Assembly: GCA_964387425.1 (NCBI GenBank)
Contig: CAYLXP010000099.1
Location: forward strand, 1 to 20,997
DNA from: an uncultured Victivallales bacterium
Lineage (GTDB): Bacteria; Verrucomicrobiota; Kiritimatiellia; UBA8416
Length of the DNA stretch: 20,997 bases
Reading direction: 5' to 3'
Both the position numbers and the translations under genes were made by a program. Below the pieces are notes generated by a model. That model did no database searches. It saw only the letters and a program-made list of their open reading frames with translations, and was not told where the DNA came from. Positions 2,567-15,392 of the stretch are shown here, in pieces. How positions within the stretch are numbered: position 1 is the first letter of the stretch; each line of letters begins with the position of its first letter.

Positions 2567-4282
2567 TTGGATCTTGAACGACTGCGCCACAGTACGGCGC
2601 ATGTGATGGCCGCCGCCATCTGCCGACTCTATGATGACGTTCTGTTGGACATCGGGCCGGCGACGGATAGCGGTTTCTACTACGACGTAGACCTCCCGAA
2701 GCGCATTGCTCCCGAAGACTTTGCCGATATCGAGGCCGAGATGGCCAAGATCGTGGCGGAGAAATCCCCCTTCGAACGGGTCGAAGTGTCGCGTGAAGAA
2801 GCGGTCAAGATGCTGACTGAACTGGGGCAGACCTTCAAGCTCGAGCGGCTCCACGACATCCCCGAGGGGGAGGCGATCACCTTCTATCGTTGTGGCGACT
2901 TCATCGACCTTTGCCGCGGTCCGCACGTGGACAACACTGGCGACATCCGGGGTTTCAAGCTTACCTCCGTGGCCGGTTCTTACTTCCACGGCAAAGAGAC
3001 GAACCCGATGCTGCAGCGTATCTATGGCATCGCGGCCCAGTCTCCCAAGCAGATCAAGGTGCAGCTGAAGCAGCTTGAAGAGGCAAAGAAGCGCGATCAC
3101 CGCAAGATCGGCAAGGAGCTGGACCTGTTCAGTATCCAGGAAGACGTTGGCCCGGGGTTGGTGCATTGGCATCCACGGGGGGCACGGATTCGCTCCATCA
3201 TCGAGGATTTCTGGAAGCGCGAGCATTTCCGGGCCGGCTACGAGCTGCTCTACTCGCCGCACATCGGCCGGGCCGAGCTCTGGCAGACATCCGGGCACAT
3301 CGACTTCTATAAGGAGAATATGTACTCGCCGATGGATGTGGACGATCACGACTACTTCGTGAAGCCGATGAACTGCCCATTCCATATCCAGGTCTATAAG
3401 AGCCAGAAACGCTCCTATCGCGATCTCCCGCTGCGTTGGGCCGAGCTGGGTACCGTCTACCGCTATGAGAAGAGCGGCGTGCTGCACGGGCTGCTGCGCG
3501 TGCGCGGCTTCACACAGGACGATGCCCATATCTTCTGCACGCCGGAGAAGATCCAGGAAGAGGTCAAGACCACGGTCACCTTTGCGCTGAATATGCTCAA
3601 GGCCTTCGGCTTTGAAGACATCAGCGCCTATCTCTCGACGCGTCCGGAGAAGGCCGTTGGCGAGCAGACCCGCTGGGAACAGGCAACCGCTTCACTGAAG
3701 CGCGCGCTGGAAGCCGAATCGATCGACTACGAGGTCGATGTCGGTGGCGGCGCCTTCTACGGTCCAAAGATTGACCTCAAGATCAAGGATGCCATCGGCC
3801 GTGAGTGGCAGATGGGGACAATCCAGTTTGATTTCAACCTTCCGGAACGCTTTGATATGAAATACACCGGTGAGGATGGCAAGGATCACCGGCCCTACAT
3901 GGTGCACCGCGCACTGCTCGGCAGTATCGAGCGGTTCTTCGGCGTGCTGGTGGAGCACTACGGCGGTAAGTTCCCGCTGTGGCTGGCCCCGGAGCAGGTC
4001 AAGGTCCTTCCCATTACCGACGATCAGCTTGAATACGCCGACCAGGTTGCCGAAACCTTGCGCGCCGCCGACTTCCGCGTGGCCGTTGACCGGCGTTCCG
4101 AGCGAATTGGTGCGAAGATTCGGGTGGCCCGCAACGAGCGTGTGCCGTACATGATTATCCTGGGCGGAAACGAACAGGAGAGCCAGACCGTGGCCCTTCG
4201 CGGGCGGGATGGCGAGCAAGAAGTGATGTCGCTTGAAACTGCAATGGAGCAGCTGCAGGCAGAGGTAGAAAACCAAGCATAG
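2567..4282 (+). CDS. thrS: threonyl-tRNA synthetase lacking the N-terminal TGS (N1) domain
   Basis: Editing-domain motifs '[12 protein letters not shown]' (HxxxH) and 'DLCRGPHV' (CxxxH) are present. Class II catalytic motifs include '[14 protein letters not shown]', '[17 protein letters not shown]' and '[13 protein letters not shown]', followed by the anticodon-binding C-terminus. TTG start at 2567 has RBS GGGAG at 2553-2557. An in-frame TGA at 2558-2560 rules out a longer N-terminus. Confidence 0.9.
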
Positions 4283-4293
4283 GGAGGTCGACT

Positions 4294-4821
4294 ATTCGTT
4301 CGTTCATCAGAGTCAATCTTAAGATCCGCGTACCCGAGGTCCGCCTGACGGGCCACGATGGCACACAGCTCGGCGTGATGTCGACGCGTGACGCCATGAA
4401 GAAGGCCCACGAGTTGGGCTTGGATCTTGTCGAGATTTCGCCGAACGCCAATCCACCGGTCTGTCGCCTGATGGACTACGGCAAATTCCGGTACGAGCAA
4501 GGCCGCAAGCAGCGTGAACAGCGCAAGCACCAGCACCAGAATGCGGTCAAAGAGATCAAGTTCCGCCCCAACGTGGGTGACCATGACTACGAGACCAAGG
4601 TCAATCACGTCCGGAAGTTCCTTGAAAAGGGCCACAAAGTTAAGATCAGCCTGACCTTCCGCGGGCGCGAAAACGCACATCGCGAGCTCGGTTTCGCGGT
4701 TGTTGAGCGCGTCATCAAGGACTGCGAAGATCTCAGCACCGTGGACATGGCTCCCAAGCGGGTCGGTCGCATGATCGTGGCCATGCTGGGCGTTCGCTCC
4801 GGCAAGGGCTCAAAGAGCTAA
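4294..4821 (+). CDS. infC: translation initiation factor IF-3, probable AUU start
   Basis: The tracked ORF (4375-4821) begins 'MMSTRDAMKKAHELGLDLVEISPNANPPVCRLMDYGKF', which is IF-3. The same frame is open upstream and reads 'IRSFIRVNLKIRVPEVRLTGHDGTQLGV'. That is the conserved IF-3 N-terminus, and it contains no ATG, GTG or TTG. ATT at 4294-4296 lies 6 nt after RBS AGGGAGG (4281-4287), which overlaps the thrS stop. AUU is the known autoregulatory infC start in many bacteria. Confidence 0.8.
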   Translation: MRSFIRVNLKIRVPEVRLTGHDGTQLGVMSTRDAMKKAHELGLDLVEISPNANPPVCRLMDYGKFRYEQGRKQREQRKHQHQNAVKEIKFRPNVGDHDYETKVNHVRKFLEKGHKVKISLTFRGRENAHRELGFAVVERVIKDCEDLSTVDMAPKRVGRMIVAMLGVRSGKGSKS

Positions 4822-5167: not shown

Positions 5168-5524
5168 ATGCCAAGAGCAACAAACGCACCAGCATCACGC
5201 CGTCGGCGTCGTCGCGTTCTTGACCAGGCCAAGGGCTTCCGTGGAGGACGCAGCAAGCTGTTCCGTACCGCTACCGAGGCCGTCGACCGCGCCATGCGCA
5301 TGTCGACCACACATCGCAAGGACAAGAAGCGCAGCTACCGCCGCCTCTGGATCAGCCGTGTCTCGGCTGCCTGCCGCCTGAATGATATTTCGTACAACCG
5401 GTTCATCGAAGGTCTTACCAAGGCTAACGTTGGGCTGAACCGCAAAATGCTTTCCGAGATCGCTATTCACGATCCCGAGGGCTTTACGAAGATCGTCGAG
5501 CAGGCTAAGGCCAGCCTGGCGTAG
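5168..5524 (+). CDS. rplT: 50S ribosomal protein L20
   Basis: 'ASRRRRRRVLDQAKGFRGGRSKLFRTATEAVDRAMRMSTTHRKDKKRSYRRLWISRVSAACR' is a typical L20 sequence. ATG at 5168 lies 7 nt after 'caggagaag'. Confidence 0.9.
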   Translation: MPRATNAPASRRRRRRVLDQAKGFRGGRSKLFRTATEAVDRAMRMSTTHRKDKKRSYRRLWISRVSAACRLNDISYNRFIEGLTKANVGLNRKMLSEIAIHDPEGFTKIVEQAKASLA

Positions 5525-5542: not shown

Positions 5543-5572
5543 AAAAAGGCCATCCTAGGATGGCCTTTTTTT
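5543..5572 (+). terminator. intrinsic terminator/attenuator hairpin between rplT and pheS, flanked by an A-run and a T-run so possibly bidirectional
   Basis: An 8-bp GC-rich stem (aggccatc 5547-5554 with gatggcct 5559-5566) has a CTAG loop. A5 lies upstream at 5543-5547 and T7 downstream at 5566-5572. It ends 17 nt before the pheS ATG. Confidence 0.6.
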
Positions 5573-5588
5573 GTGTCGAGAGGGAATC

Positions 5589-6608
5589 ATGAACGTAGCG
5601 GAAATTGAGGCAATCAAGGCGGAAGCGCTGGCGTCGGTTGCGGCGGCAGAGACGGCCGAGGACATCGAGGCGGTTCGCATCAAGTACATTGGCCGCAAGG
5701 GCCTTCTGCCGCAGATCATGAAGGGGCTGAAGGATGTGGCCCCCGAAGAGCGCGGCGCCGTAGGGAAGGGCGCTAACGCGCTGAAGAACGCACTGGGCTC
5801 AGCCCTGGATGAGAAGCTTGCCGCCTTGAAAGGCGGCGCCGGCGATGCTCCCGCGGCGGCATTCGATACCACGCTGCCGGGACGGTGGCGTCCGCGCGGC
5901 ACGATGCACCCGATCTCCCTGGTCATTGAAGAAACCGTTCGCATTTTCAGCCGGCTCGGGTTCACCGTGGCTGAGGGTCCCGACGTTGAGACCGGGTACC
6001 GCAACTTCGAGGCGCTCAACACGCCGGACTACCATCCCTCGCTGGATCACCAGGACACCTTCTGGCTCGAGTCGGGAGAGCTGCTGCGAACGCAGACATC
6101 CCCGGTGCAGATTCGCGTGATGGAACAGCAGCCGCCGCCGGTTCGTATCGTGACCCCCGGGCGCTGCTATCGCCGCGACACCACCGATGCCACGCACAGT
6201 GCAAACTTCCACCAGATCGAAGGTCTCTATGTCGACACCGATGTTTCACTGGCGGACCTGAAGGGCACGCTGGCCTACTTTGCACATGAGATGATGGGCC
6301 CCGACGTGAAGGTCCGTTTCCGCCCGCACTTCTTCCCGTTCACCGAACCCAGCGTTGAGTGCGATTTCTCGTGCCACGTCTGCGGCGGGGATGGATGCCG
6401 GGTGTGCAAACAGAGCGGATGGATTGAGATTGCCGGCGCCGGCATGGTGGATCCGCGCGTCTTTGAGCGCGTGGGATACGATGCGACCGCGGTGATGGGG
6501 TATGCGTTCGGAATGGGAATCGAACGCATTGCAATGATCAAGTACGGCATTCCGGACATCCGGATGCTCTATGATAACGACGTCAGGTTCCTGACACAAT
6601 TTCGATAG
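5589..6608 (+). CDS. pheS: phenylalanyl-tRNA synthetase alpha subunit
   Basis: 'MNVAEIEAIKAEAL...YIGRKGLL' is a typical PheS N-terminus. Class II core motifs 'GRCYRRD' and 'FHQIEG' are present. RBS GAGAGGGAA lies at 5578-5586. The tracked ORF start at 5571 is inside the terminator T-run, so ATG 5589 is preferred. Confidence 0.9.
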   Translation: MNVAEIEAIKAEALASVAAAETAEDIEAVRIKYIGRKGLLPQIMKGLKDVAPEERGAVGKGANALKNALGSALDEKLAALKGGAGDAPAAAFDTTLPGRWRPRGTMHPISLVIEETVRIFSRLGFTVAEGPDVETGYRNFEALNTPDYHPSLDHQDTFWLESGELLRTQTSPVQIRVMEQQPPPVRIVTPGRCYRRDTTDATHSANFHQIEGLYVDTDVSLADLKGTLAYFAHEMMGPDVKVRFRPHFFPFTEPSVECDFSCHVCGGDGCRVCKQSGWIEIAGAGMVDPRVFERVGYDATAVMGYAFGMGIERIAMIKYGIPDIRMLYDNDVRFLTQFR

Positions 6609-6626: not shown

Positions 6627-9032
6627 ATGAAGGTGCCTGTTAGTTGGCTGCGTGAATACGTTGACTTGGATGCAACGCCGGAGGAGCTTGCGGATAAGCT
6701 GACGTTCTCGGGAATCGAAGTCGAGGGGATCCACACGATCGGCAGCGACTATGCCGGCGTAGTCGTCGGAGAGGTGCGCCGGATCGAGCAGCACCCCGGT
6801 GCGGACCGCCTGCGGCTCTGTCGTGTATTCAACGGCGACGAGGAACTCCAGGTTGTCTGTGGTGCGGACAACTTCGAGGTCGGTGACAAGGCCCCCTTTG
6901 CAGGCGTCGGTGTGACGCTTGCGAACGGCTTCAAACTCAAGAAGGCGAAGATTCGCGGCGAAGTCTCCTTTGGGATGCTCTGCGCCGAGGACGAGCTGGG
7001 CATCTCGGACGACCACGAGGGCATCATGGTTCTCCCGCGTGATACGGAATCCGGGACGCCACTGAGCGACGTCCTGGGACCGCCGGACACGGTGCTGGAA
7101 CTCGAAATCACCTGGAACCGCCCGGACTGCCTTAGCGTGATTGGCATTGCGCGCGAGTTTGCGGCGCTTTACGGCACTGAGCTGAAGCTCCCCGAGGTGA
7201 CGGTTGCCGAGTCTGGTGCCAACGTCGAGGACCTCGTGTCGGTAACAATTGATGATCCCGAGGGCTGCCCGCGCTACACGGCGCGCGCCCTGTCGGACAT
7301 CACGATTGCGCCCAGCCCACTCTGGATGCAGCGCCGGCTGGCGATGAGTGGCGTACGCCCGATCAACAACATCGTGGATGTAACGAACTACGTGATGCTG
7401 GAATGCGGCCATCCGCTGCACGCGTTTGATCACAGTCTTCTGGAAGAGGGCAAGATCGTTGTGCGGCGTGCGCGGGACGGCGAGAAGATGGTCACACTCG
7501 ACGGCGTCGATCGTCCAGTGACTCCTGACATGCTGATGATTGCAGACGCGGAGAAGCCCGTGGCTGTTGCCGGCGTCATGGGTGGGGCCGGCAGTGAGAT
7601 CCGTGACGACACGGCCACGGTGCTGCTGGAAAGCGCCTCTTTCGATCCGCGTGGCATCCATCGCACCTCTCTGGCACTGTCGCTCTCCACCGAGTCGTCG
7701 CACCGTTTTGAGCGCTACGTGAATGTTGAGACCGTAGACTGGGCCGGCAATCGCGCCGCGCAGTTGATGCAGGATGTCGCCGGGGCATCGGTGGCGGCCG
7801 GCATGGTCGATGTCTACCCGCGCCCCTATGAGCCGCGTCGGATTGAACTGAACATGGCCCGCATGCACAAGCTGTTGGGCGTCCACGTCGGTGTCGAGAA
7901 GGCGGTCGAGGTGCTCGAGTCGCTGATGATCCCGGTAGTGGAGCAGGGGACAGAGTCAATCACGGTGGAAGCGCCCGGCTTCCGGCCTGACCTTGAGCGT
8001 GAAGCGGACCTGGTTGAGGAGATCGCCCGGATGTATGGACTGGCGCATGTTCCGGATGTCGTGCCTGCCGCCCGGATCGTGCCGCTCGCCAGCGATGAAC
8101 CGACCCGCGCGCTGTTCACGTGCCGTGACAACCTGATTGCCATGGGGCTGCTTGAGATCATGAGCTACAGCTTCGTTCCGGAATCGCTGTTGGACGCGTT
8201 CTGCGACTCTGATAAGACCTCTCGCGTGGTGTTGCCGAACCCCGTGAGTGCTGACCATGCCGTGATGCGCAACTCCCTCGTTCCACAGATGGTGGAGTGC
8301 TTGGGCCGCAACCATTCCCGGCAGATTATCGACGCGACTCTCTTCGAGATTGGCAAGGTGTTTTGGCAGGATGAAAAGGGCGTTGTCGACGAGGAAGACC
8401 GGGTCTGTATTGGTGTGATGGGCAAAGCGGGCCGGGGAGCCCTGGAGAAGCGCACGGCCGTCAAGGACGACGAGGTATTTCTCTGGGCCAAAGGTATCGT
8501 GGAAGGCCTTGCCGAGGCGCAGTGCATCGGTCCACTGACGTTCACGCCGGTGGATCATCCCTATTGCGAGTCCGGCGAGTCCGTCTCTATCCTATTGGGG
8601 GACAAGGTGTTAGGATTTCTTGGGTTGCTGCGGAAGGAGCTGCGCCATCGCCATCGCATGGCCGAGCCCGTGGCAATTGCCGAGCTTTCGATGACTCCAC
8701 TTCTGGAGTCCGTTTTCTCAACTCGCTCGTTTCATCCGGTGCCGCAATACCCCGCAATCAGCCGGGACGTGGCCATCATTGTTGACGAAAACGTCATGCA
8801 TCAGGACATCTTGAGAGTCATTCAGGGGGCCGCACCGGTCGAGTTGACAGGTGTTGATCTCTTTGATATCTTCACGAGTGGAGGGATGAGACAAGGCAAG
8901 AAGAGCCTCGCCTACTCCCTCACGTATCGTTCTTTTGAGCGCACATTGACGGACGAGGATGCCAACGGGTATCACGAAACGATCAAGGATGCTCTGAAGA
9001 GTGAGCTCGGTGTTGAAATACGAGAAGGCTGA
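6627..9032 (+). CDS. pheT: phenylalanyl-tRNA synthetase beta subunit
   Basis: 'MKVPVSWLREYVDLD' is the canonical PheT N-terminus. The 801-aa length and domain order are typical (tRNA-binding, B3/4, B5, C-terminal anticodon-binding). RBS GGGGAG lies 8 nt upstream. Confidence 0.9.
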   Translation: MKVPVSWLREYVDLDATPEELADKLTFSGIEVEGIHTIGSDYAGVVVGEVRRIEQHPGADRLRLCRVFNGDEELQVVCGADNFEVGDKAPFAGVGVTLANGFKLKKAKIRGEVSFGMLCAEDELGISDDHEGIMVLPRDTESGTPLSDVLGPPDTVLELEITWNRPDCLSVIGIAREFAALYGTELKLPEVTVAESGANVEDLVSVTIDDPEGCPRYTARALSDITIAPSPLWMQRRLAMSGVRPINNIVDVTNYVMLECGHPLHAFDHSLLEEGKIVVRRARDGEKMVTLDGVDRPVTPDMLMIADAEKPVAVAGVMGGAGSEIRDDTATVLLESASFDPRGIHRTSLALSLSTESSHRFERYVNVETVDWAGNRAAQLMQDVAGASVAAGMVDVYPRPYEPRRIELNMARMHKLLGVHVGVEKAVEVLESLMIPVVEQGTESITVEAPGFRPDLEREADLVEEIARMYGLAHVPDVVPAARIVPLASDEPTRALFTCRDNLIAMGLLEIMSYSFVPESLLDAFCDSDKTSRVVLPNPVSADHAVMRNSLVPQMVECLGRNHSRQIIDATLFEIGKVFWQDEKGVVDEEDRVCIGVMGKAGRGALEKRTAVKDDEVFLWAKGIVEGLAEAQCIGPLTFTPVDHPYCESGESVSILLGDKVLGFLGLLRKELRHRHRMAEPVAIAELSMTPLLESVFSTRSFHPVPQYPAISRDVAIIVDENVMHQDILRVIQGAAPVELTGVDLFDIFTSGGMRQGKKSLAYSLTYRSFERTLTDEDANGYHETIKDALKSELGVEIREG

Positions 9033-9100
9033 CGAAGCGAGCCGGTTGGCGCGGGACGGAAGCCTGAATGAAATGATGATCAAGGTGGGGTTTCGGCCCG

Positions 9101-9328
9101 ATGATGAGTACCTTATTGAATGTTATTCTGCTGGCCCTCGGATGGCTTCTGGTGGTGTTGGCTGGCGGATTTATTGAGCGCGAGAGAATCGCCGTTTATA
9201 TTGATGAAAGGCGCTATCGCGGCTCGTTCAGAGGGCGTAAAGCCCACTGTTCTATAAAAACAGAATACATGCACTCCATAGGGAACGAAAATACCCTGCC
9301 TTGTTCGATCACAGGCAAAGATCTCTGA
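9101..9328 (+). CDS. doubtful small ORF (75 aa) with one N-terminal transmembrane helix, in a low-GC island
   Basis: 'STLLNVILLALGWLLVVLAGGFI' is a plausible TM helix. AGGTGG lies 12 nt upstream. Codon usage (tta, aat, gtt, att, ttt, tat, ata, aaa) is unlike the rest of the window. A good promoter lies inside the ORF. It may not be coding. Confidence 0.2.
   Translation: MMSTLLNVILLALGWLLVVLAGGFIERERIAVYIDERRYRGSFRGRKAHCSIKTEYMHSIGNENTLPCSITGKDL
9174..9202 (+). promoter_or_regulatory. sigma70-like promoter (TTGAGC-N17-TATATT) in the low-GC island upstream of the structured RNA and rarA
   Basis: -35 TTGAGC at 9174-9179, an exact 17-nt spacer, then -10 TATATT at 9197-9202. The predicted TSS is near 9209, about 285 nt upstream of the rarA ATG. 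Confidence 0.4.
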
Positions 9329-9478
9329 CCCAGTACATAGGTATCAGGGAGCTGGAATGCGGCGGATGACGGTGTAACTGCCTTCGGGCAGGAGACCTGA
9401 AACGCTGACTATAGCACCCACCTCGCTTGCGAGGTTCAGAGACGCAGCTTGGTACGGCAACGGTGGGGTATTTTTTTT
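9290..9478 (+). ncRNA. candidate structured small RNA (possible 6S/SsrS-like) or terminator-containing leader upstream of rarA-ygfA
   Basis: A UUCG tetraloop hairpin lies at 9378-9391 (ctgcc-ttcg-ggcag). A CUUG tetraloop hairpin lies at 9421-9434 (cctcg-cttg-cgagg). A long-range closing helix pairs 9290-9305 with 9456-9472: 16 bp including G.U pairs and one bulged C. It ends in T8 at 9471-9478. These features are strand-specific: the complements would be CGAA and CAAG loops. Local GC is about 48% against about 62% for the window. Confidence 0.35.
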
Positions 9479-9494
9479 GGTTCCGGGGGAAGGC

Positions 9495-10814
9495 ATGGAT
9501 CTGTTTGAGAAACGAGGGGACGCCACGCCGGCGGAGGCTCAACCGCTGGCAGCGCGCATGCGACCTGCCTCGGTTGACGAGGTCCTGGGGCAGGAACACA
9601 TCCTCGGCCCCGGCAAACTCCTGCGGCGTGCCATCGATGCCGATCGCCTCGGTAGCATCATCCTCTACGGTCCCCCCGGCTGCGGGAAGACCTCCCTGGC
9701 GGAAGTCATCGCCGCTGCCACCCAGCGCCGATTCGTCCGAACCAGCGGCGTGCTTGCCAACGTGGCGGAGCTCCGTGCACTGATCAAGGAGGCCCGTCAC
9801 CGCCTCAAGCAGGACGGCTCCGAGACGATACTGTTCGTGGACGAGATCCATCGCTTCAACAAGGCCCAGCAGGATGTCCTGTTGCCGCACGTTGAAGATG
9901 GCGCGATCACGCTGATTGGCGCGACGACCCACAACCCGATGTTCTTCATCAATACCCCCCTGACGTCGCGCTCGCTGGTGTTCGAGCTGAAGCCACTCTC
10001 CGAAACGGCGATCGTGGAATTGCTGCACCGGGCTCTCGGCGATGAGCGCGGGCTTGCAGATCATGCCGTGTCCGCAGACGATGACGCGCTGGTGCACATC
10101 GCGGCCATGTGCGAGGGCGACGCCCGACGCGCGCTGAATGCGCTTGAGATCGCTGTGCTGACAACGCAACCGGCTGATGACGGTACGGTTCAAATTGACC
10201 GGGACGTGGCCGAGGACTCCGTCCAGAAGAAGGCCATTCTCTACGACAATGATGAGGACGGTCACTACGACACGATTTCGGCCTTCATCAAGAGTGTGCG
10301 CGGTTCCGATCCGCATGCGGCGGTCTACTGGTTGGCGAAAATGCTGTATGCCGGCGAGGATCCCCGTTTCGTCGCGCGCCGGCTCATCATCCTGGCCTCC
10401 GAAGATATCGGCAACGCCGATCCCCGCGGCTTGCTGGTGGCTACGGCCGCCATGCGATCTGTCGAGTTTGTTGGCATGCCCGAGGCCCGTATCATTCTCT
10501 CCCAGGCGACGACCTATCTCGCCACCGCCCCCAAGAGCAATGCGGCCTATGTTGCTGTCGACAAAGCCCTGAAGGATGTCGAAGCCGGCCGCGTGTTACC
10601 CGTTCCCGAACACCTCAAGAACGTTCACCTGAAGGCGGCCGACGGTACCGACCGATCCAAGGGCTACGCCTATCCGCACGAATTTAAGGGGCACCATGTG
10701 AAGCAGGAGTATATCCCCACCTCGGCTGTCTATTATGAGCCGAGTGAGGAAGGGTACGAATCGACAATTGGGAAGCGGATGGCGAGCTGGGCTGAAGCCG
10801 GTGCGACGGCATGA
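9495..10814 (+). CDS. rarA: replication-associated recombination protein A (AAA+ ATPase RarA/MgsA)
   Basis: Walker A 'GPPGCGKTSLA', Walker B 'ILFVDEIHRF' and sensor 'IGATTHNP' are present, followed by the MgsA C-terminal helical domain ('AVYWLAKMLYAGEDPRFVARRL'). RBS GGGGGAAGG lies just before ATG 9495. The tracked start at 9477 is inside the T-run. Confidence 0.85.
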   Translation: MDLFEKRGDATPAEAQPLAARMRPASVDEVLGQEHILGPGKLLRRAIDADRLGSIILYGPPGCGKTSLAEVIAAATQRRFVRTSGVLANVAELRALIKEARHRLKQDGSETILFVDEIHRFNKAQQDVLLPHVEDGAITLIGATTHNPMFFINTPLTSRSLVFELKPLSETAIVELLHRALGDERGLADHAVSADDDALVHIAAMCEGDARRALNALEIAVLTTQPADDGTVQIDRDVAEDSVQKKAILYDNDEDGHYDTISAFIKSVRGSDPHAAVYWLAKMLYAGEDPRFVARRLIILASEDIGNADPRGLLVATAAMRSVEFVGMPEARIILSQATTYLATAPKSNAAYVAVDKALKDVEAGRVLPVPEHLKNVHLKAADGTDRSKGYAYPHEFKGHHVKQEYIPTSAVYYEPSEEGYESTIGKRMASWAEAGATA

Positions 10815-11395
10815 GCGAGACGATGGAATCGAAAGAGCGCATTCGTCGTGAGATACGAATGCGGCGAGCGGCGTTATCGCCGGAGTGGATTGCATCGGCA
10901 AGCGAACGGGTTGCGGAGCGGTTCATGGCCCTGGAGGCGTTTCAGACGGCTGAGACGATCTGCCTCTATATGGCAATCGCGGGAGAGGTTCAATTGGATG
11001 CCGTGATGGCACAGTGTTGGGAAGATGGCAGGCGCGTGCTGGTACCGGCGTACCGGCCGGCGCAGCAGGACTATGGGTTCAAAGTGATCACGTCTGACAT
11101 GGCACTGGCCGAGGGTCCATGGGGGGTGCCGGAGCCGGCGACGGACGCCTGGGCCGATGTGGGATCAACGGCCTGCTTGGCGGTGCCCGGTATGGCGTTT
11201 GACGAAGCCGGCGGACGTGTGGGGCATGGTGGCGGTTACTATGACCGTCTGCTGGCCTCCGTTGGCAGTGACCGGTCCCGCGTGGGGGTCTGTTTTGACT
11301 TCCAGCGGGTCGAGCGGGTTCCGCGCGAGGCGTGGGACGTTGGAATGGATTTTGTGGTGTCGGAGTCGCGCGTAACGCGCGGCATGAATGCGTAA
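10811..11395 (+). CDS. ygfA: 5-formyltetrahydrofolate cyclo-ligase
   Basis: 'KERIRREIRMRRAALSPE', 'LVPAYRPAQQDYGF', 'VPGMAFDEAGGRVGHGGGYYDRLLA' and 'VGVCFDFQ' are typical 5-FCL motifs. The ATG overlaps the rarA stop (ATGA at 10811-10814), which suggests translational coupling. Confidence 0.8.
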   Translation: MSETMESKERIRREIRMRRAALSPEWIASASERVAERFMALEAFQTAETICLYMAIAGEVQLDAVMAQCWEDGRRVLVPAYRPAQQDYGFKVITSDMALAEGPWGVPEPATDAWADVGSTACLAVPGMAFDEAGGRVGHGGGYYDRLLASVGSDRSRVGVCFDFQRVERVPREAWDVGMDFVVSESRVTRGMNA

Positions 11396-11466: not shown

Positions 11467-13020
11467 ATGCAAGCGGTGATAGCAGGTGTTGCAGCAGGTG
11501 TAATTGGGTTGGCTGTAGGGTACCTGATACGATTGGCGATGGGGCGCATGAAGGCGACGGCGGACGAAGGGCAGGCCAAGATGCTGCTCGCCGACGCACA
11601 GCGCGAGGCGGAGACGATTCGCAAAGAGGGGACCATCAGTGCGAAGGCGGAGGTTCTCAAGGCGCGCGAGGAGTTTGAGAAATCGACGGAATCCCGCCGC
11701 AAAGAGCTGGCGGCACTTGAAGAGCGCGTGAATCTGCGCGAGACGAACCTGGATCGCAAGGTTTCGCTGATCGACAAGAAGGAGCGGACCGTTGATGAGA
11801 AACTGGCCAACATCGAGCAGCGCGACGAGGAGCTGAAGCAGGACAAGGAACAGGTTCAGAAGCTGATTGAGGAAGAGAAGCAGAAACTCCAGCGCATTGC
11901 AGGCATGACGCAGGACGAAGCCCGGCAGATGCTGCTCTCGCGTATGGAGAAAGAGGTCCACGGTGAGATCGGCGGACTGATTCGGCGCATGCAGGAGCAG
12001 GCCAAGGATACGGCCGAACGTGAAGCCAAGAAGATCATAACCCAGGCCATTCAGCGTTACGCGTCCTCGCACACGAGCGACATTGTGACCAGCACGGTGG
12101 CCTTGCCCAGTGACGATATGAAGGGGCGCATCATTGGTCGGGACGGCCGGAACATCCGGGCCCTCGAAGCGGCCACGGGCGTTAACTTCCTGATCGACGA
12201 CACGCCGGAAGCGGTCGTGGTCTCGGGATTCGATCCCGTGCGGCGTGAAATCGCGAAGCAGGCCCTGGAACGCCTGTTGACGGATGGCCGTATCCATCCC
12301 GCTCGCATTGAAGAGGTCGTTGAGAAGGCTACCGAGGACATGGGTGAGACCATTCGGGCTGCGGGTGAAGAGACCCTGTTCGAGGTGGGAATCCAGGGCG
12401 TTGACCCGGAGCTGGTCCGGACACTCGGTCGGCTGAAGTACCGCACGAGCTACACGCAGAATGTTCTGCGGCACTCGGTGGAAGTCGCACAGCTCATGGG
12501 GCTGATGGCCGGCGAGCTGGGGCTTGATCCCCTGGTTGCCAAGCGTGTTGGCTTGTTCCACGACATCGGCAAAGCGCTCGACCACGAGGTCGAAGGCGGC
12601 CATGCCATTATCGGCGCCGATCTGCTGAAGCGCATGGGCGAGCCACAGGAAGTCGTGAACGGGGTTGCCTCCCACCACGAAGAGGTTGAAGCGCAGAGCC
12701 TCTATGCTGTGCTGTGCTCAGCAGCAGACGCGATGTCCAGCTCGCGCGTCGGGGCGCGCTCGGAGACGAGCGGCCTCTACGTCAAGCGCCTGGAGAAACT
12801 CGAGGCGATCGCGAACGAGTTCGAAGGCGTCGAGAAGAGCTATGCCATCCAGGCCGGCCGTGAAGTGCGCGTCATCGTGGAGCCGGACAAGGTGGACGAT
12901 AGCGCAGCGATGGTGCTGGCACGCAATATGAGCAAGAAGATCGAAAGCGATCTACAGTATCCGGGGCAGATTCGCATCACGGTGATCCGCGAGACCCGTT
13001 GTGTCGAGTATGCGAAGTAG
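11467..13020 (+). CDS. rny: ribonuclease Y
   Basis: An N-terminal TM helix ('AVIAGVAAGVIGLAVGYLI') is followed by a long coiled coil. A KH domain ('GRIIGRDGRNIRALEAATGVNFLIDD') and an HD domain ('VLRHSVEVAQL...HDIGKALDHEVEGGHAIIGA') follow. RBS AGGAGGGG precedes the start. Confidence 0.9.
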   Translation: MQAVIAGVAAGVIGLAVGYLIRLAMGRMKATADEGQAKMLLADAQREAETIRKEGTISAKAEVLKAREEFEKSTESRRKELAALEERVNLRETNLDRKVSLIDKKERTVDEKLANIEQRDEELKQDKEQVQKLIEEEKQKLQRIAGMTQDEARQMLLSRMEKEVHGEIGGLIRRMQEQAKDTAEREAKKIITQAIQRYASSHTSDIVTSTVALPSDDMKGRIIGRDGRNIRALEAATGVNFLIDDTPEAVVVSGFDPVRREIAKQALERLLTDGRIHPARIEEVVEKATEDMGETIRAAGEETLFEVGIQGVDPELVRTLGRLKYRTSYTQNVLRHSVEVAQLMGLMAGELGLDPLVAKRVGLFHDIGKALDHEVEGGHAIIGADLLKRMGEPQEVVNGVASHHEEVEAQSLYAVLCSAADAMSSSRVGARSETSGLYVKRLEKLEAIANEFEGVEKSYAIQAGREVRVIVEPDKVDDSAAMVLARNMSKKIESDLQYPGQIRITVIRETRCVEYAK

Positions 13021-13131
13021 GGAGTAACTACGAAATACGCGAAAGGCGCGAAAGGCTGATAGGCTTTCGCCTCCGCGGGGCCTACGGCGTGACATACCGC
13101 TGTTCGTCCACTGCTGGGATTGAAAGGTGAT

Positions 13132-13932
13132 ATGAAGGTACTGATGGTGGGAGATTTGGTGGGGTCACCGGGGCGGCAGGTGTTTGCGCAGGTGGTCACC
13201 CGCATGAAGCAGACCAAGGGCGTCGACTTTGTTGTCGTTAACGCCGAGAACTCGGCGGGTGGCAAAGGCGTGACGGGAAAGCTGGCAGAGGAACTGTTTG
13301 CGGCCGGTGCTGATGTTATCACGCTGGGGGATCATGCCTGGAACCAGAAAGAGTTTATTTCCTACATCGACTCCGAGCCTCGCATCTTGCGTCCGGCCAA
13401 CTTTGCGCCTGGTAACCCGGGCCATGGCGCCGTGACCGTCAACACACCGTTTGGTGATGTCACGGTACTCAACTTGGTGGGGCGTGTTTTCATGGGGCCT
13501 TATGACTGCCCGTTTCGCAAAGCTGATGAGCTGCTAAAGGAGCATCCGTCGAGCAAGATCAAGCTGGTCGATATGCATGCCGAAGCAACGTCCGAGAAGA
13601 TTGTGATCGGTCGGTACCTGGATGGGCGCGTCAGTGCTGTTGTGGGAACGCACACGCATGTCCAGACGTCTGACGAGATCGTCCTGCCGGGCGGCACGGC
13701 ATATTTGACAGACCTTGGGATGACGGGGGTGAAGGATTCTGCCATTGGAAGAGAACTGGACTCGGTGGTTTCCATGTTCTTGACAGGGATGCCGTCGAAA
13801 TATCAGCTCGCCAAGGGCGACCCCGTGCTGGAAGGCCTCCTGATCGACGTCGATCCTACGACTGGGCGTGCAAAGAAGGTCAAGCGGTTGCGTGAGAGTA
13901 TGTCGGGTGCTGCGAAGACGGCGTGGCAGTAG
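13132..13932 (+). CDS. ymdB: YmdB-like metallophosphoesterase (TIGR00282 family; 2',3'-cyclic-nucleotide phosphodiesterase)
   Basis: 'MKVLMVGDLVGSPGR...VVNAENSAGGKG...GDHAWNQKE...GTHTHVQTSDE' contains the calcineurin-like metal-binding motifs. Adjacency to rny matches the rny-ymdB pair of Bacillus. ATG 13132 is preferred over the tracked TTG 13120. Confidence 0.8.
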   Translation: MKVLMVGDLVGSPGRQVFAQVVTRMKQTKGVDFVVVNAENSAGGKGVTGKLAEELFAAGADVITLGDHAWNQKEFISYIDSEPRILRPANFAPGNPGHGAVTVNTPFGDVTVLNLVGRVFMGPYDCPFRKADELLKEHPSSKIKLVDMHAEATSEKIVIGRYLDGRVSAVVGTHTHVQTSDEIVLPGGTAYLTDLGMTGVKDSAIGRELDSVVSMFLTGMPSKYQLAKGDPVLEGLLIDVDPTTGRAKKVKRLRESMSGAAKTAWQ

Positions 13933-13988
13933 TCTTCAGTCATTTGCGCCTGCGGCGCGTCATTTGTCATGAGTCACTGGTGGGGACA

Positions 13989-15392
13989 ATGGAGTCGAGA
14001 GGAAAAGCTTCGTTGCAGATGTTGGGGCAGGATCGGACGGCTGATGATCGCCCGAAGGCGCTATCGGTTTCCGAACTGACGCGGATGATCAAGGGCACGC
14101 TGGAAGGACGCTTCGGCAGCGTGCTCGTGGAAGGCGAGCTCTCCAACGTAAGCCAACCCGCATCGGGTCACCTCTACTTCACCATCAAAGATGCGAACGC
14201 CCAGATTAGCGCGGTCATGTTTCGGGGCAACCAGCGGGGGTTGAAATTCCGCCCTCAGGATGGCGTCGTGGTCCGCGCCCGGGGCGAGATTAGCGTCTAC
14301 GAGCGGCGCGGGAACTACCAGATTCTCGTGCGGCGCATGGAGGAGGGCGGCAAGGGCAGTCTGCAGGCGCAGTTCGAGGCCCTGAAGGAGAAGCTCCAGA
14401 AGGAGGGGCTCTTTGCCAAGGAGCGCAAGCGGCCGCTACCGATGCTGCCGCAGCATGTGGGCGTGGTCACCTCCGCGACCGGCGCGGCCATCCGCGACAT
14501 TCTGAATGTGGTTTCACGCCGCTTTCCCAACCTGCACGTCCTGGTGGCACCCGCCAAGGTCCAGGGTGATGGTGCCGCCGAGGAGATTGCGAGTCAGATT
14601 GATCGGCTCAACGAAATCGGTGGCCTGGACGTTCTGATCGTGGGGCGGGGCGGCGGCAGTCTCGAGGATCTCTGGAGTTTCAACGAAGAGGTCGTTGCGC
14701 GGGCCATTGCACGATCTACGATTCCCGTGATCTCGGCCGTGGGGCACGAGGTGGACTTCACGATCAGCGATTTCGTCGCCGACCTGCGGGCACCGACACC
14801 GTCGGCAGCCGCCGAGCTGGTCGTGGGCTGCAAGGAGGCGTTCCAGGATCGCCTTGCCGAGCAGCAGGGACGTCTTGTGCGGGCGCTGCGGGAGAGCGCG
14901 CTTGCCGCCCGGAACCGGTTGCTGCATGCGGCGGGGAGCTACGTGTTCCGCGAGCCGGCCAACGCCGCGGCACGGCACCGTCAGAAACTGGATGCGTGCC
15001 GGATGCGGATTGAGCACAAACTACGCGGTGCGCTGCAGGAGACGCAACAGACGCTGGACCTGATTGAGTCGCGTCTGCAGCAGGAGACACGCACGGCAGT
15101 CCAGGTGAGCCGCCAGACGCTTGAGGATCTCCGGCTGAGAATGGTTCACCGCGCCAAGCTGCGCCACCAGATGGGCGTCCAGGATGTGCGCCGCGTTGCC
15201 ATGCAGCTGCGGGCATTGAACCCGTTGGCTGTACTGCAGCGCGGTTACTCGGTAACGCGGGGCGCCGATGGACGCATCATTGCCAGAGTTGCGGACGTGA
15301 AGCCGGATGAGATCGTGGAGACGCAAGTTGCGGATGGACGCTTTGAGGCCGAAGTGAAGATTGTGAAGAAGGACGAGGGGCGCTCCGGGTAG
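13989..15392 (+). CDS. xseA: exodeoxyribonuclease VII large subunit
   Basis: 'LSVSELTRMIKGTLEGRFGSVLVEGELSNVSQPASGHLYFTIKDANAQISAVMF' is the XseA OB-fold N-terminus. A catalytic region and C-terminal coiled coil follow. The start is uncertain: ATG 13989 or 14019, with GTG 13923 as the tracked maximum. Confidence 0.85.
   Translation: MESRGKASLQMLGQDRTADDRPKALSVSELTRMIKGTLEGRFGSVLVEGELSNVSQPASGHLYFTIKDANAQISAVMFRGNQRGLKFRPQDGVVVRARGEISVYERRGNYQILVRRMEEGGKGSLQAQFEALKEKLQKEGLFAKERKRPLPMLPQHVGVVTSATGAAIRDILNVVSRRFPNLHVLVAPAKVQGDGAAEEIASQIDRLNEIGGLDVLIVGRGGGSLEDLWSFNEEVVARAIARSTIPVISAVGHEVDFTISDFVADLRAPTPSAAAELVVGCKEAFQDRLAEQQGRLVRALRESALAARNRLLHAAGSYVFREPANAAARHRQKLDACRMRIEHKLRGALQETQQTLDLIESRLQQETRTAVQVSRQTLEDLRLRMVHRAKLRHQMGVQDVRRVAMQLRALNPLAVLQRGYSVTRGADGRIIARVADVKPDEIVETQVADGRFEAEVKIVKKDEGRSG

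What the first reader, a model, noticed from the sequence alone, without database searches (positions are those of the whole stretch)
9209..9478. Structured, terminator-ended RNA candidate upstream of rarA-ygfA: possible 6S/SsrS-like RNA or attenuator leader
The 400-bp low-GC island after pheT has a near-consensus promoter (TTGAGC-N17-TATATT, TSS about 9209). Downstream of it lies a region with hallmarks of a stable non-coding RNA on the + strand only:

- a UUCG tetraloop hairpin (9378-9391) and a CUUG tetraloop hairpin (9421-9434);
- a 16-bp long-range closing helix pairing 9290-9305 with 9456-9472, enclosing about 150 nt;
- a T8 run (9471-9478) abutting the rarA RBS.

In E. coli and many other bacteria, 6S RNA (ssrS) lies immediately upstream of, and is co-transcribed with, the 5-formyl-THF cyclo-ligase gene ygfA. 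Here the same enzyme gene sits two genes downstream, coupled to rarA. A ~180-nt RNA with a long closing stem is the 6S architecture. The alternative is a cis-acting attenuator in a ~285-nt rarA leader.
Basis: partly seen in the sequence, partly recalled or inferred. Interest (0 to 1): 0.7.

Follow-up and report, generated by a model that had tools for sequence, protein, structure and literature searches.

The report
Canonical 6S RNA gene upstream of rarA
The structured spacer between pheT and rarA is an ordinary 6S RNA gene, the widespread small RNA that mimics an open promoter to hold back RNA polymerase; the one mildly new point is that relatives carry an rRNA-style antitermination signal (boxA) in the 6S leader.

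Summary
Window 9290-9473 (+) matches Rfam 6S/SsrS (RF00013) over the full model: 66.6 bits against a gathering score of 46.4, and it is the only Rfam hit in the window. All the features described are present: both tetraloop hairpins, the closing helix of about 15-17 bp, the T8 run and the TTGAGC-N17-TATATT promoter.

The host is a Kiritimatiellia-like PVC bacterium known only from metagenomes. A 6S sits on the same strand upstream of rarA in 46 of 80 related loci. In a 33-sequence alignment 92% of cells are paired and 35 of 43 pairs show compensatory changes.

The order pheST-6S-rarA-ygfA-rny-ymdB recurs across these lineages. It combines the two known 6S linkages, ygfA in Proteobacteria and rarA in Firmicutes. 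Only 21 nt separate the 6S from the rarA ATG, so co-transcription is implied, as in E. coli ssrS-ygfA.

One extra finding: Verrucomicrobiota and Kiritimatiellia 6S leaders carry a hairpin followed by GYTCTTTG(A/G)NAA. The same element sits at the boxB-boxA positions of Verrucomicrobia-type rRNA operons. The window's copy (GTTCTATAAAAAC) is degenerate.

Verdict: a known family and an ordinary member, so low interest. The boxA link is a modest lead.

The parts
9174..9202 (+). Sigma-70-like promoter TTGAGC-N17-TATATT (-35 at 9174-9179, -10 at 9197-9202); predicted transcription start about 9209
   Evidence: It is the only promoter-like site in 8900-9700. Verrucomicrobial 6S genes have the same architecture, TTGAGA-N17-GATAnT, upstream of their leaders. 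It is not recognisably conserved in the closest relatives L001-L010. The transcription start is inferred, not mapped.
9209..9289 (+). Predicted 5' leader of the 6S precursor, about 80 nt, removed by processing
   Evidence: Inferred from the distance between the promoter and the 5' end of the 6S model match. Relatives have leaders of comparable length.
9233..9245 (+). Short hairpin GGGC-GTAAA-GCCC, boxB-like by position
   Evidence: Found by folding the 32 nt upstream of the motif. In most 6S leaders, and in Verrucomicrobia-type rRNA leaders, a variable hairpin ends 2-3 nt before the motif.
9249..9261 (+). Degenerate boxA-like element GTTCTATAAAAAC (lineage consensus GTTCTTTGnAAa)
   Evidence: Identified by positional homology to the GYTCTTTG motif, which occurs within 100 nt upstream of the 6S in 25 of 45 loci. 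The background rate is 0.019 per 100 nt. The same motif occurs in rRNA leaders and 16S-23S spacers. The window copy has 2 mismatches and is not significant on its own.
9290..9473 (+). 6S RNA (ssrS) gene, 184 nt
   Evidence: Rfam RF00013 at 66.6 bits against a gathering score of 46.4, model positions 1-187 of 187. The lineage model R1 scores it at 141 bits. Covariation supports the fold.
9290..9307 (+). Closing stem, 5' strand; pairs with 9455-9472
   Evidence: MFE helices. The consensus helices are conserved, with G-C to G-U and compensatory changes.
9322..9328 (+). Internal stem TCTCTGA, pairing with TCAGAGA at 9436-9442; it borders the central bubble and is the predicted pRNA template region
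   Evidence: Helix 4: 6 of 7 pairs have compensatory changes. UCUCUGACCC is highly conserved. The pRNA role is inferred by analogy.
9329..9346 (+). 5' strand of the central bubble (CCCAGTACATAGGTATCA), unpaired in the consensus
   Evidence: The consensus structure leaves these columns unpaired. The 4-bp hairpin that MFE predicts here is not conserved.
9347..9419 (+). Terminal arm with the apical UUCG hairpin (9378-9391)
   Evidence: Helices 5-9: 17 of 18 pairs have compensatory changes.
9420..9435 (+). 3' strand of the central bubble, forming the small CUUG hairpin
   Evidence: Helix 10: all 3 pairs have compensatory changes. The flanking GCACCCACCU and GGUUCA match the Rfam consensus.
9471..9478 (+). 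U8 run directly after the closing stem; probable 3'-end or leaky-terminator signal
   Evidence: Visible in the sequence. T-rich tails follow the closing stem in most of the related loci listed, and 23 of 45 have at least 8 T in the 12 nt around the 3' end. The function is inferred.
9495..10814 (+). rarA/mgsA, starting 21 nt after the 6S; no room for a promoter of its own
   Evidence: Pfam MgsA_C, AAA_assoc_2 and RuvB_N. The MDLF N-terminus is conserved in relatives, and the gap to the 6S is 1-31 nt in the close relatives.
10811..11395 (+). 5-formyltetrahydrofolate cyclo-ligase (ygfA/fau), overlapping rarA by 4 nt
   Evidence: Pfam PF01812, E 8e-41. It follows rarA in many related loci.
9101..9328 (+). 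75-codon ORF called as a gene in the public contigs; probably a spurious call across the promoter, leader and 6S 5' end
   Evidence: Called as a gene in the JGI contigs. It has no Pfam match. By tblastn only its last ~15 codons match relatives, and those codons overlie the conserved 6S 5' end.

Best explanation
Window 9290-9473 (+) encodes a canonical 6S RNA (SsrS).

By homology, it folds into a long, imperfect hairpin: closing stem, large central bubble and terminal arm. This shape mimics an open promoter. The RNA binds RNA polymerase holoenzyme carrying the primary sigma factor and sequesters it when growth slows. It is released when the polymerase uses the bubble as a template to make a short product RNA (pRNA). 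That pRNA would be templated by the conserved UCUCUGACCC segment at about 9322-9331.

The gene is probably transcribed from the promoter at 9174-9202 as a precursor with an ~80-nt leader. That transcript probably continues into rarA-ygfA, and possibly rny-ymdB. The mature 6S would then be cut out at about 9290 and trimmed at the U-run. The closing stem plus U8 probably acts as a partial terminator that sets the ratio of 6S to downstream mRNA.

In related Verrucomicrobiota and Kiritimatiellia, the leader carries an rRNA-type boxB-boxA module. This would load the Nus-factor antitermination complex. The window keeps only a degenerate copy.

Shown here: family membership, structure, conservation, synteny and motif identity. 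Inferred: polymerase binding, pRNA synthesis, transcript ends, co-transcription, terminator activity and Nus-factor loading.
For: - Family match: Rfam 6S over the full model, above its gathering score, on the + strand only.
- Conservation of position: Rfam-grade 6S at the same position in 11 of the 16 closest loci and in a distant Verrucomicrobiae locus. The lineage model finds it upstream of rarA in 46 of 80 loci.
- Covariation, independent alignment: 18 of 43 pairs compensatory in a MAFFT alignment.
- Covariation, 33 sequences: 92% of cells paired and 35 of 43 pairs with double changes. No shuffle out of 500 reaches these values, and sliding the partners drops pairing to 42-49%.
- Bubble sequences: GCACCCACCU and GGUUCA match the Rfam consensus.
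- Fold stability: z = -4.19.
- Synteny: followed by rarA and ygfA. ygfA adjacency to 6S is documented in PMC9130861, rarA proximity in PMC8414754, and E. coli ssrS-fau are 20 nt apart.
- Co-transcription: only 21 nt lie between the 6S and the rarA ATG (1-31 nt in close relatives), and no promoter-like site lies in between.
- boxA: the motif is present in 25 of 45 loci where about 0.9 are expected by chance. It is identical to the element in rRNA leaders and spacers. Its core matches the published search pattern GYTCTTTAANA. The order promoter, hairpin, boxA matches rrn leaders.
Against: - There are no expression data, so transcript ends, abundance, polymerase binding and pRNA synthesis are all untested.
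- The promoter matches only 9 of 12 positions and is not recognisably conserved in the closest relatives.
- The window's boxA-like site has 2 mismatches, including T6 to A, and is not significant on its own: 5 matches in the window against 1.7 expected.
- The closest leader homologue, L003, lacks the motif.
- The terminator scan does not call the closing stem plus U8, because its 'loop' is about 150 nt.
- The rRNA loci used for the boxA comparison are assigned to Verrucomicrobia only through a probe-target signature recalled from memory.
Confidence: 0.93

Rival explanations
1. The element is only a cis-acting attenuator or riboswitch-like leader of the rarA-ygfA mRNA. Its structure plus the U8 run would stop or pass transcription in response to a signal, and no stable trans-acting RNA would be produced.
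For: The structure ends in a stem followed by U8, only 21 nt before the rarA ATG. It necessarily lies within the rarA leader, because no other promoter is detected.
Against: - The full-length 6S covariance-model match is far above the gathering score, and no riboswitch or leader family matches even at E <= 1.
- In Verrucomicrobiia the same RNA is followed by its own canonical terminator, with rarA about 150 nt or more further on (up to 1.6 kb), so it exists as an independent unit.
- In Omnitrophota a promoter abuts the mature 5' end.
- No alternative terminator/antiterminator pairing was seen.
Confidence: 0.03
2. The spacer encodes the 75-residue protein called by the gene finders (9101-9328). 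Its hydrophobic N-terminus would make it a small membrane protein, and the RNA structure downstream would be incidental.
For: An intact ATG-started ORF with a hydrophobic N-terminal stretch. It is called as a gene in three public contigs.
Against: - No Pfam family matches.
- tblastn against 80 related loci finds only the C-terminal ~15 residues, where the ORF overlaps the conserved 6S 5' end. That is nucleotide conservation, not protein conservation.
- The ORF runs across the promoter, the leader and 39 nt of the 6S.
Confidence: 0.02
3. The structure is the transcription terminator of the upstream thrS-infC-rplT-pheST cluster, with nothing functional beyond ending that operon.
For: It lies downstream of pheT and ends in a stem plus a T-run.
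Against: - It starts 258 nt after the pheT stop codon and is 184 nt long, with conserved and covarying internal architecture.
- The same RNA occurs in Verrucomicrobiia loci where pheT is not upstream.
- It has its own promoter.
Confidence: 0.02

Closest known systems
E. coli ssrS (6S RNA) in the ssrS-ygfA(fau) dicistronic unit
   Same: - Same Rfam family and same three-part architecture.
- About 184 nt in both.
- A 5' leader that must be processed.
- The next ORF starts about 20 nt after the 6S in both (20 nt in E. coli; 21 nt here), implying co-transcription.
- The cyclo-ligase gene is in the same operon.
   Different: - rarA is inserted between the 6S and the cyclo-ligase, with rny-ymdB following.
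- The 3' end here carries a U8 run that E. coli lacks.
- E. coli has no + strand boxA-like site upstream of ssrS.
- Outside the conserved blocks, sequence similarity to E. coli ssrS is low.
Firmicute 6S RNAs (B. subtilis 6S-1/bsrA; lactic acid bacteria 6S)
   Same: - Canonical 6S fold.
- Conserved proximity to rarA (PMC8414754).
- A processed 5' leader (PMC10578484).
- These are organisms that have RNase Y.
   Different: - In lactic acid bacteria rarA lies upstream of a monocistronic, terminator-ended 6S. In B. subtilis rarA is on the opposite strand.
- Here the 6S lies upstream of rarA, on the same strand, and is evidently co-transcribed with it.
rrn-type boxB-boxA antitermination modules outside rRNA operons (suhB leader; CRISPR-array leaders)
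   Same: - A GYTCTTT-core motif after a promoter, in the leader of a long untranslated transcript.
- Published rationale: protection of non-coding RNA from Rho (PMC5725501; PMC7665894).
- The order hairpin then boxA matches rrn leaders (PMC10250234).
   Different: - The downstream RNA is 6S. No paper in the searchable library links boxA to 6S/ssrS.
- Baniulyte et al. state that their survey did not consider non-coding RNAs.
- The window's own copy is degenerate.
- Nus-factor binding is untested.

Membership tests
6S / SsrS RNA (Rfam RF00013) | Covariance-model score at or above the curated gathering score, over the full model | tested here: met
   66.6 bits against 46.4, model positions 1-187 of 187, + strand only.
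6S / SsrS RNA (Rfam RF00013) | Length of about 150-200 nt, folding into closing stem, large central bubble and terminal arm | tested here: met
   The gene is 184 nt. The consensus structure from independent and model-guided alignments has these three parts, and 35 of 43 pairs are compensatory.
6S / SsrS RNA (Rfam RF00013) | Conserved sequence blocks flanking the bubble (CUGA..CC on the 5' side; GCACCCACCU and GGUUCA on the 3' side) | tested here: met
   Seen in the alignment to the Rfam consensus. The blocks are invariant or nearly invariant across the related loci.
6S / SsrS RNA (Rfam RF00013) | Small hairpin within the 3' strand of the central bubble | tested here: met
   Hairpin at 9420-9435. 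All 3 consensus pairs have compensatory changes.
6S / SsrS RNA (Rfam RF00013) | Binds RNA polymerase holoenzyme carrying the primary sigma factor | not testable with these tools
   Needs co-immunoprecipitation or gel shift.
6S / SsrS RNA (Rfam RF00013) | Serves as a template for pRNA synthesis, which releases the polymerase | not testable with these tools
   The template region is only predicted, from the conserved UCUCUGACCC segment.
6S / SsrS RNA (Rfam RF00013) | Abundant, stable, discrete transcript | not testable with these tools
6S / SsrS RNA (Rfam RF00013) | Frequent (not universal) linkage to ygfA and/or rarA | tested here: met
   The order 6S-rarA-ygfA is seen here and in many relatives. 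The linkages are documented in the literature.
boxA (NusB-NusE binding site of rrn-type antitermination) | Core sequence GYTCTTT followed by an A-rich tail | tested here: inconclusive
   Relatives meet this, with consensus GTTCTTTgnaAa across 28 leaders. The window has GTTCTATAAAAAC: 2 mismatches and not significant on its own.
boxA (NusB-NusE binding site of rrn-type antitermination) | Same sequence as the boxA of the lineage's own rRNA operons, in both the leader and the 16S-23S spacer | tested here: met
   Verrucomicrobia-type rRNA operons carry GYTCTTTGA(A/C/T)A at -112 to -245 before the 16S and at -85 to -117 before the 23S. The rRNA operons and the 6S loci come from different contigs and genomes.
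boxA (NusB-NusE binding site of rrn-type antitermination) | Located in the transcribed leader just after a promoter and preceded by a boxB-like hairpin | tested here: met
   The order promoter, hairpin, motif, 6S is seen. The hairpin regions fold better than all 200 shuffles on average. The rrn order boxB-boxA-boxC is described in PMC10250234.
boxA (NusB-NusE binding site of rrn-type antitermination) | Binds NusB-NusE and confers resistance to Rho-dependent termination | not testable with these tools
   Needs gel shift or ChIP, and boxA mutants with and without Rho inhibition.

The most novel reading that the evidence does not exclude
In Verrucomicrobiota and Kiritimatiellota, 6S RNA is transcribed like an rRNA. 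A boxB-boxA module in its leader recruits the Nus-factor antitermination complex. That complex would do three things: protect the untranslated 6S transcript from Rho, help the distant 5' and 3' strands of the closing stem to pair, and, where rarA abuts the 6S, carry the polymerase through the stem plus U-run into rarA-ygfA-rny. This would add 6S RNA to the short list of non-rRNA targets of boxA (suhB and CRISPR arrays). It would also tie the synthesis of a global polymerase regulator to the machinery that makes ribosomes.
Probability: 0.4. Interest if true: 0.5.

Novelty: already known. Interest (0 to 1): 0.27.

Why it matters
As a 6S RNA gene it matters little. The family has been known for decades, and the standard Rfam model finds this copy, so the result mainly corrects the annotation: the public contigs call a spurious 75-codon ORF across it.

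Two side results are of modest value.
- The PVC and Omnitrophota arrangement 6S-rarA-ygfA joins the two separately reported 6S linkages. This hints at an old association of 6S with replication-fork rescue and folate salvage genes.
- The rRNA-type boxA in many 6S leaders would, if functional, extend Nus-factor antitermination to another abundant non-coding RNA. It also gives a testable explanation of how an untranslated 6S-mRNA co-transcript escapes Rho.

Tried and rejected
For the conserved leader motif I considered several explanations before the boxA comparison settled it.
- Alternative promoter (sigma-54, ECF or Bacteroidetes-type): rejected because the motif's distance to the 6S 5' end varies from 4 to 75 nt and no matching second element is conserved.
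- LexA-type TGTTC half-site: rejected because there is no second half-site.
- RNase E or RNase Y cleavage signal: the motif does not fit the RN|WUU rule as I recall it.
- Alternative pairing partner of the closing-stem 3' strand: the complementarity is not conserved.

Other checks that led nowhere:
- A leader-trailer extension of the closing stem (GGAAC 9282-9286 with GUUCC 9480-9484) exists in the window but is absent from L003, so I dropped it.
- The 75-codon ORF was rejected as coding.
- Minus-strand hits of my model (19.6 bits in the window against 141 on the + strand) reflect the near-symmetry of a long hairpin, not a second gene.
- Literature look-ups failed for Wehner 2014 and Arnvig 2008, which are not held. 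A search for papers printing the motif returned only primer noise.
- The Rfam permissive scan of 8950-9560 found nothing besides 6S.

Full report
**Observation**

- CTGCC-TTCG-GGCAG lies at 9378-9391.
- CCTCG-CTTG-CGAGG lies at 9421-9434.
- A T8 run lies at 9471-9478.
- In the minimum-free-energy fold, 9290-9300 pairs with 9462-9472, 9301-9304 with 9457-9460, and 9306-9307 with 9455-9456.
- TTGAGC-N17-TATATT at 9174-9202 is the only sigma-70-like site in 8900-9700.
- GC falls to 0.47-0.53 across the spacer, against 0.57-0.67 in the flanks.

The + strand folds much better than shuffled sequence (z = -4.19, 0 of 200 shuffles as good). The - strand is weaker (z = -2.35).

**Identity**

Rfam's 6S/SsrS model (RF00013) matches 9290-9473 on the + strand over its whole length: 66.6 bits against a gathering score of 46.4, E 1.9e-11. 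It is the only Rfam hit in the 21-kb window. A permissive scan of 8950-9560 adds nothing else. The alignment shows the family's conserved blocks around the bubble (CUGA..CC, GCACCCACCU, GGUUCA).

**Gene context**

Pfam assigns the following genes, all on the + strand:

| Gene | Coordinates |
|---|---|
| thrS | 2567-4282 |
| infC | 4375-4821 |
| rplT | 5168-5524 |
| pheS | 5571-6608 |
| pheT | 6627-9032 |
| 6S RNA (Rfam) | 9290-9473 |
| rarA/mgsA | 9495-10814 |
| 5-formyl-THF cyclo-ligase | 10811-11395 |
| RNase Y | 11467-13020 |
| YmdB | 13120-13932 |
| xseA | 13923-15392 |

rarA and the cyclo-ligase gene overlap by 4 nt.

**Source and relatives**

The rarA protein's closest relatives, at most 75% identical, are from MAGs labelled Kiritimatiellia, Verrucomicrobiota, Lentisphaerae, Omnitrophota and Planctomycetia. 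The exact protein occurs on ~20-kb JGI metagenome contigs. The host is therefore an uncultured bacterium of the PVC group.

Rfam finds a full-length 6S directly upstream of rarA, on the same strand, in 11 of the 16 closest loci and in a Verrucomicrobiae locus. I built a covariance model from these sequences. It finds a + strand 6S upstream of rarA in 46 of 80 loci.

**Structure support**

- An alignment made without reference to structure has compensatory changes at 18 of 43 consensus pairs.
- In a 33-sequence model-guided alignment, 92% of cells are paired and 35 of 43 pairs have double changes. No shuffle out of 500 reaches the observed values. Sliding the 3' partners by 1-3 columns drops pairing to 42-49%.

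The consensus has these parts:
- a closing stem;
- an internal stem (9322-9328 with 9436-9442);
- an unpaired 5' bubble strand (9329-9346);
- a terminal arm capped by the UUCG hairpin;
- a small covarying hairpin in the 3' bubble strand (9420-9435).

This is the canonical 6S architecture.

**Transcription unit**

The rarA ATG lies 21 nt after the 6S. In close relatives the gap is 1-31 nt, and in L022 and L044 the ATG abuts the U-run. No promoter-like site lies in between. rarA-ygfA must therefore be transcribed through the 6S gene.

E. coli has the same layout, with ssrS ending 20 nt before the cyclo-ligase gene. The literature records 6S-ygfA adjacency in several proteobacterial classes (PMC9130861). 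It also records 6S-rarA proximity in Firmicutes, but there rarA is upstream or on the opposite strand and the 6S is monocistronic (PMC8414754). The order pheST-6S-rarA-ygfA-rny-ymdB recurs in many of the related loci. It combines both known linkages.

T-rich tails follow the closing stem in most of the related loci. In Verrucomicrobiia a second, canonical terminator follows and rarA lies further downstream. In the window's clade there is none. I infer that the closing stem plus U8 is a partial terminator or 3'-end signal. This is not shown.

**Promoter and leader**

The window's promoter has the same architecture as the promoters upstream of verrucomicrobial 6S genes, TTGAGA-N17-GATAnT. I could not recognise it in the closest relatives. 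It would give an ~80-nt leader that must be removed.

Omnitrophota and Planctomycetia loci instead have a TTGATT-N17-TATAMT promoter abutting the mature 5' end.

**A boxA-like element in the leader**

Within the leaders of the Verrucomicrobiota and Kiritimatiellia loci, G(T/C)TCTTTG(A/G)NAA recurs 4-75 nt upstream of the 6S. It usually follows a short hairpin of variable sequence by 2-3 nt.
- It is present within 100 nt upstream of the 6S in 25 of 45 loci. The background rate is 0.019 per 100 nt.
- Its core equals that of the published boxA search pattern GYTCTTTAANA (PMC5725501).
- The order promoter, hairpin, motif matches the boxB-boxA order of rrn leaders (PMC10250234).

To test this directly, I fetched 16S genes carrying the Verrucomicrobia-type signature ACACCTACGGGTGGCAGCAG.
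- Of 49 loci with enough upstream sequence, 19 carry the core motif in the 400 nt before the 16S, where about 4 are expected.
- Fourteen occurrences at -300 to -90 give the consensus GtTCTTTGAaAg. A short hairpin ends 2-3 nt before about half of them.
- In three complete operons confirmed by Rfam, the motif also sits 85-117 nt before the 23S.

That is the textbook placement of boxA. The 6S-leader motif is therefore the lineage's rrn-type boxA.

The window's copy, GTTCTATAAAAAC at 9249-9261 after the hairpin at 9233-9245, has two mismatches and is not significant by itself. The closest leader homologue, L003, lacks it. E. coli ssrS has no such site. No paper in the searchable library links boxA with 6S or ssrS. 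Function is inferred by analogy with rRNA, suhB and CRISPR leaders.

**Rejected readings**

- The 75-codon ORF at 9101-9328 is called as a gene in the public contigs. It has no family match and no protein-level conservation. It spans the promoter, the leader and the 6S 5' end.
- A purely cis-acting attenuator and a pheT terminator are both contradicted. The same RNA occurs as an independent, promoter-to-terminator unit in other lineages.

**Verdict**

It is a canonical member of a long-known family that standard tools detect, so it is ordinary. The boxA link and the combined synteny are modest leads that still need experimental testing.

Noticed in passing
window 9233-9261; L001-L068 leaders (for example L001:2800-2860, L038:880-925): A hairpin followed by GYTCTTTG(A/G)NAA recurs in the leaders of 6S genes of Verrucomicrobiota and Kiritimatiellia. 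The same element sits at the boxB-boxA positions of Verrucomicrobia-type rRNA operons, in both the leader and the 16S-23S spacer. The window's copy is degenerate.
   Followed up: yes
window 9101-9328: A 75-codon ORF is called as a gene in the public JGI contigs. It overlaps the promoter, the leader and 39 nt of the 6S, and it is not conserved as a protein. It is probably a spurious call.
   Followed up: yes
L001-L080 (rarA-anchored loci): The gene order pheS-pheT-6S-rarA-ygfA-rny-ymdB is shared by Kiritimatiellia, some Verrucomicrobiota, Omnitrophota and a Chlamydiota-labelled MAG. It joins the ygfA linkage (Proteobacteria) and the rarA linkage (Firmicutes) of 6S in one operon-like block.
   Followed up: partly
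L022:3990-4010; L044:3990-4005: The rarA ATG follows the 6S U-run by only 1-3 nt. The only purine-rich stretch that could serve as a ribosome-binding site lies inside the closing stem's 3' strand.
   Followed up: no
L036:104-277: A second, weak 6S-like match (37 bits with my model, below the Rfam gathering score) lies about 3.4 kb upstream of the main 6S of this Verrucomicrobiae locus. It could be a diverged paralogue or chance.
   Followed up: no
L026-L068 (Verrucomicrobiia loci), about 60-110 nt upstream of the 6S: 6S promoters in this group share CTTGAGAAA-N14-GATAnT, a -10 element beginning with G rather than T. This may reflect the lineage's promoter preference.
   Followed up: no
window 4617-4628: GTTCCTTGAAAA, one mismatch from the boxA consensus, lies inside infC on the + strand. 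It is most likely chance.
   Followed up: no
window 9282-9286 with 9480-9484: GGAAC in the leader can pair with GUUCC just before the rarA ribosome-binding site. This would extend the closing stem in the precursor. The pairing is not seen in the closest relative, L003.
   Followed up: partly
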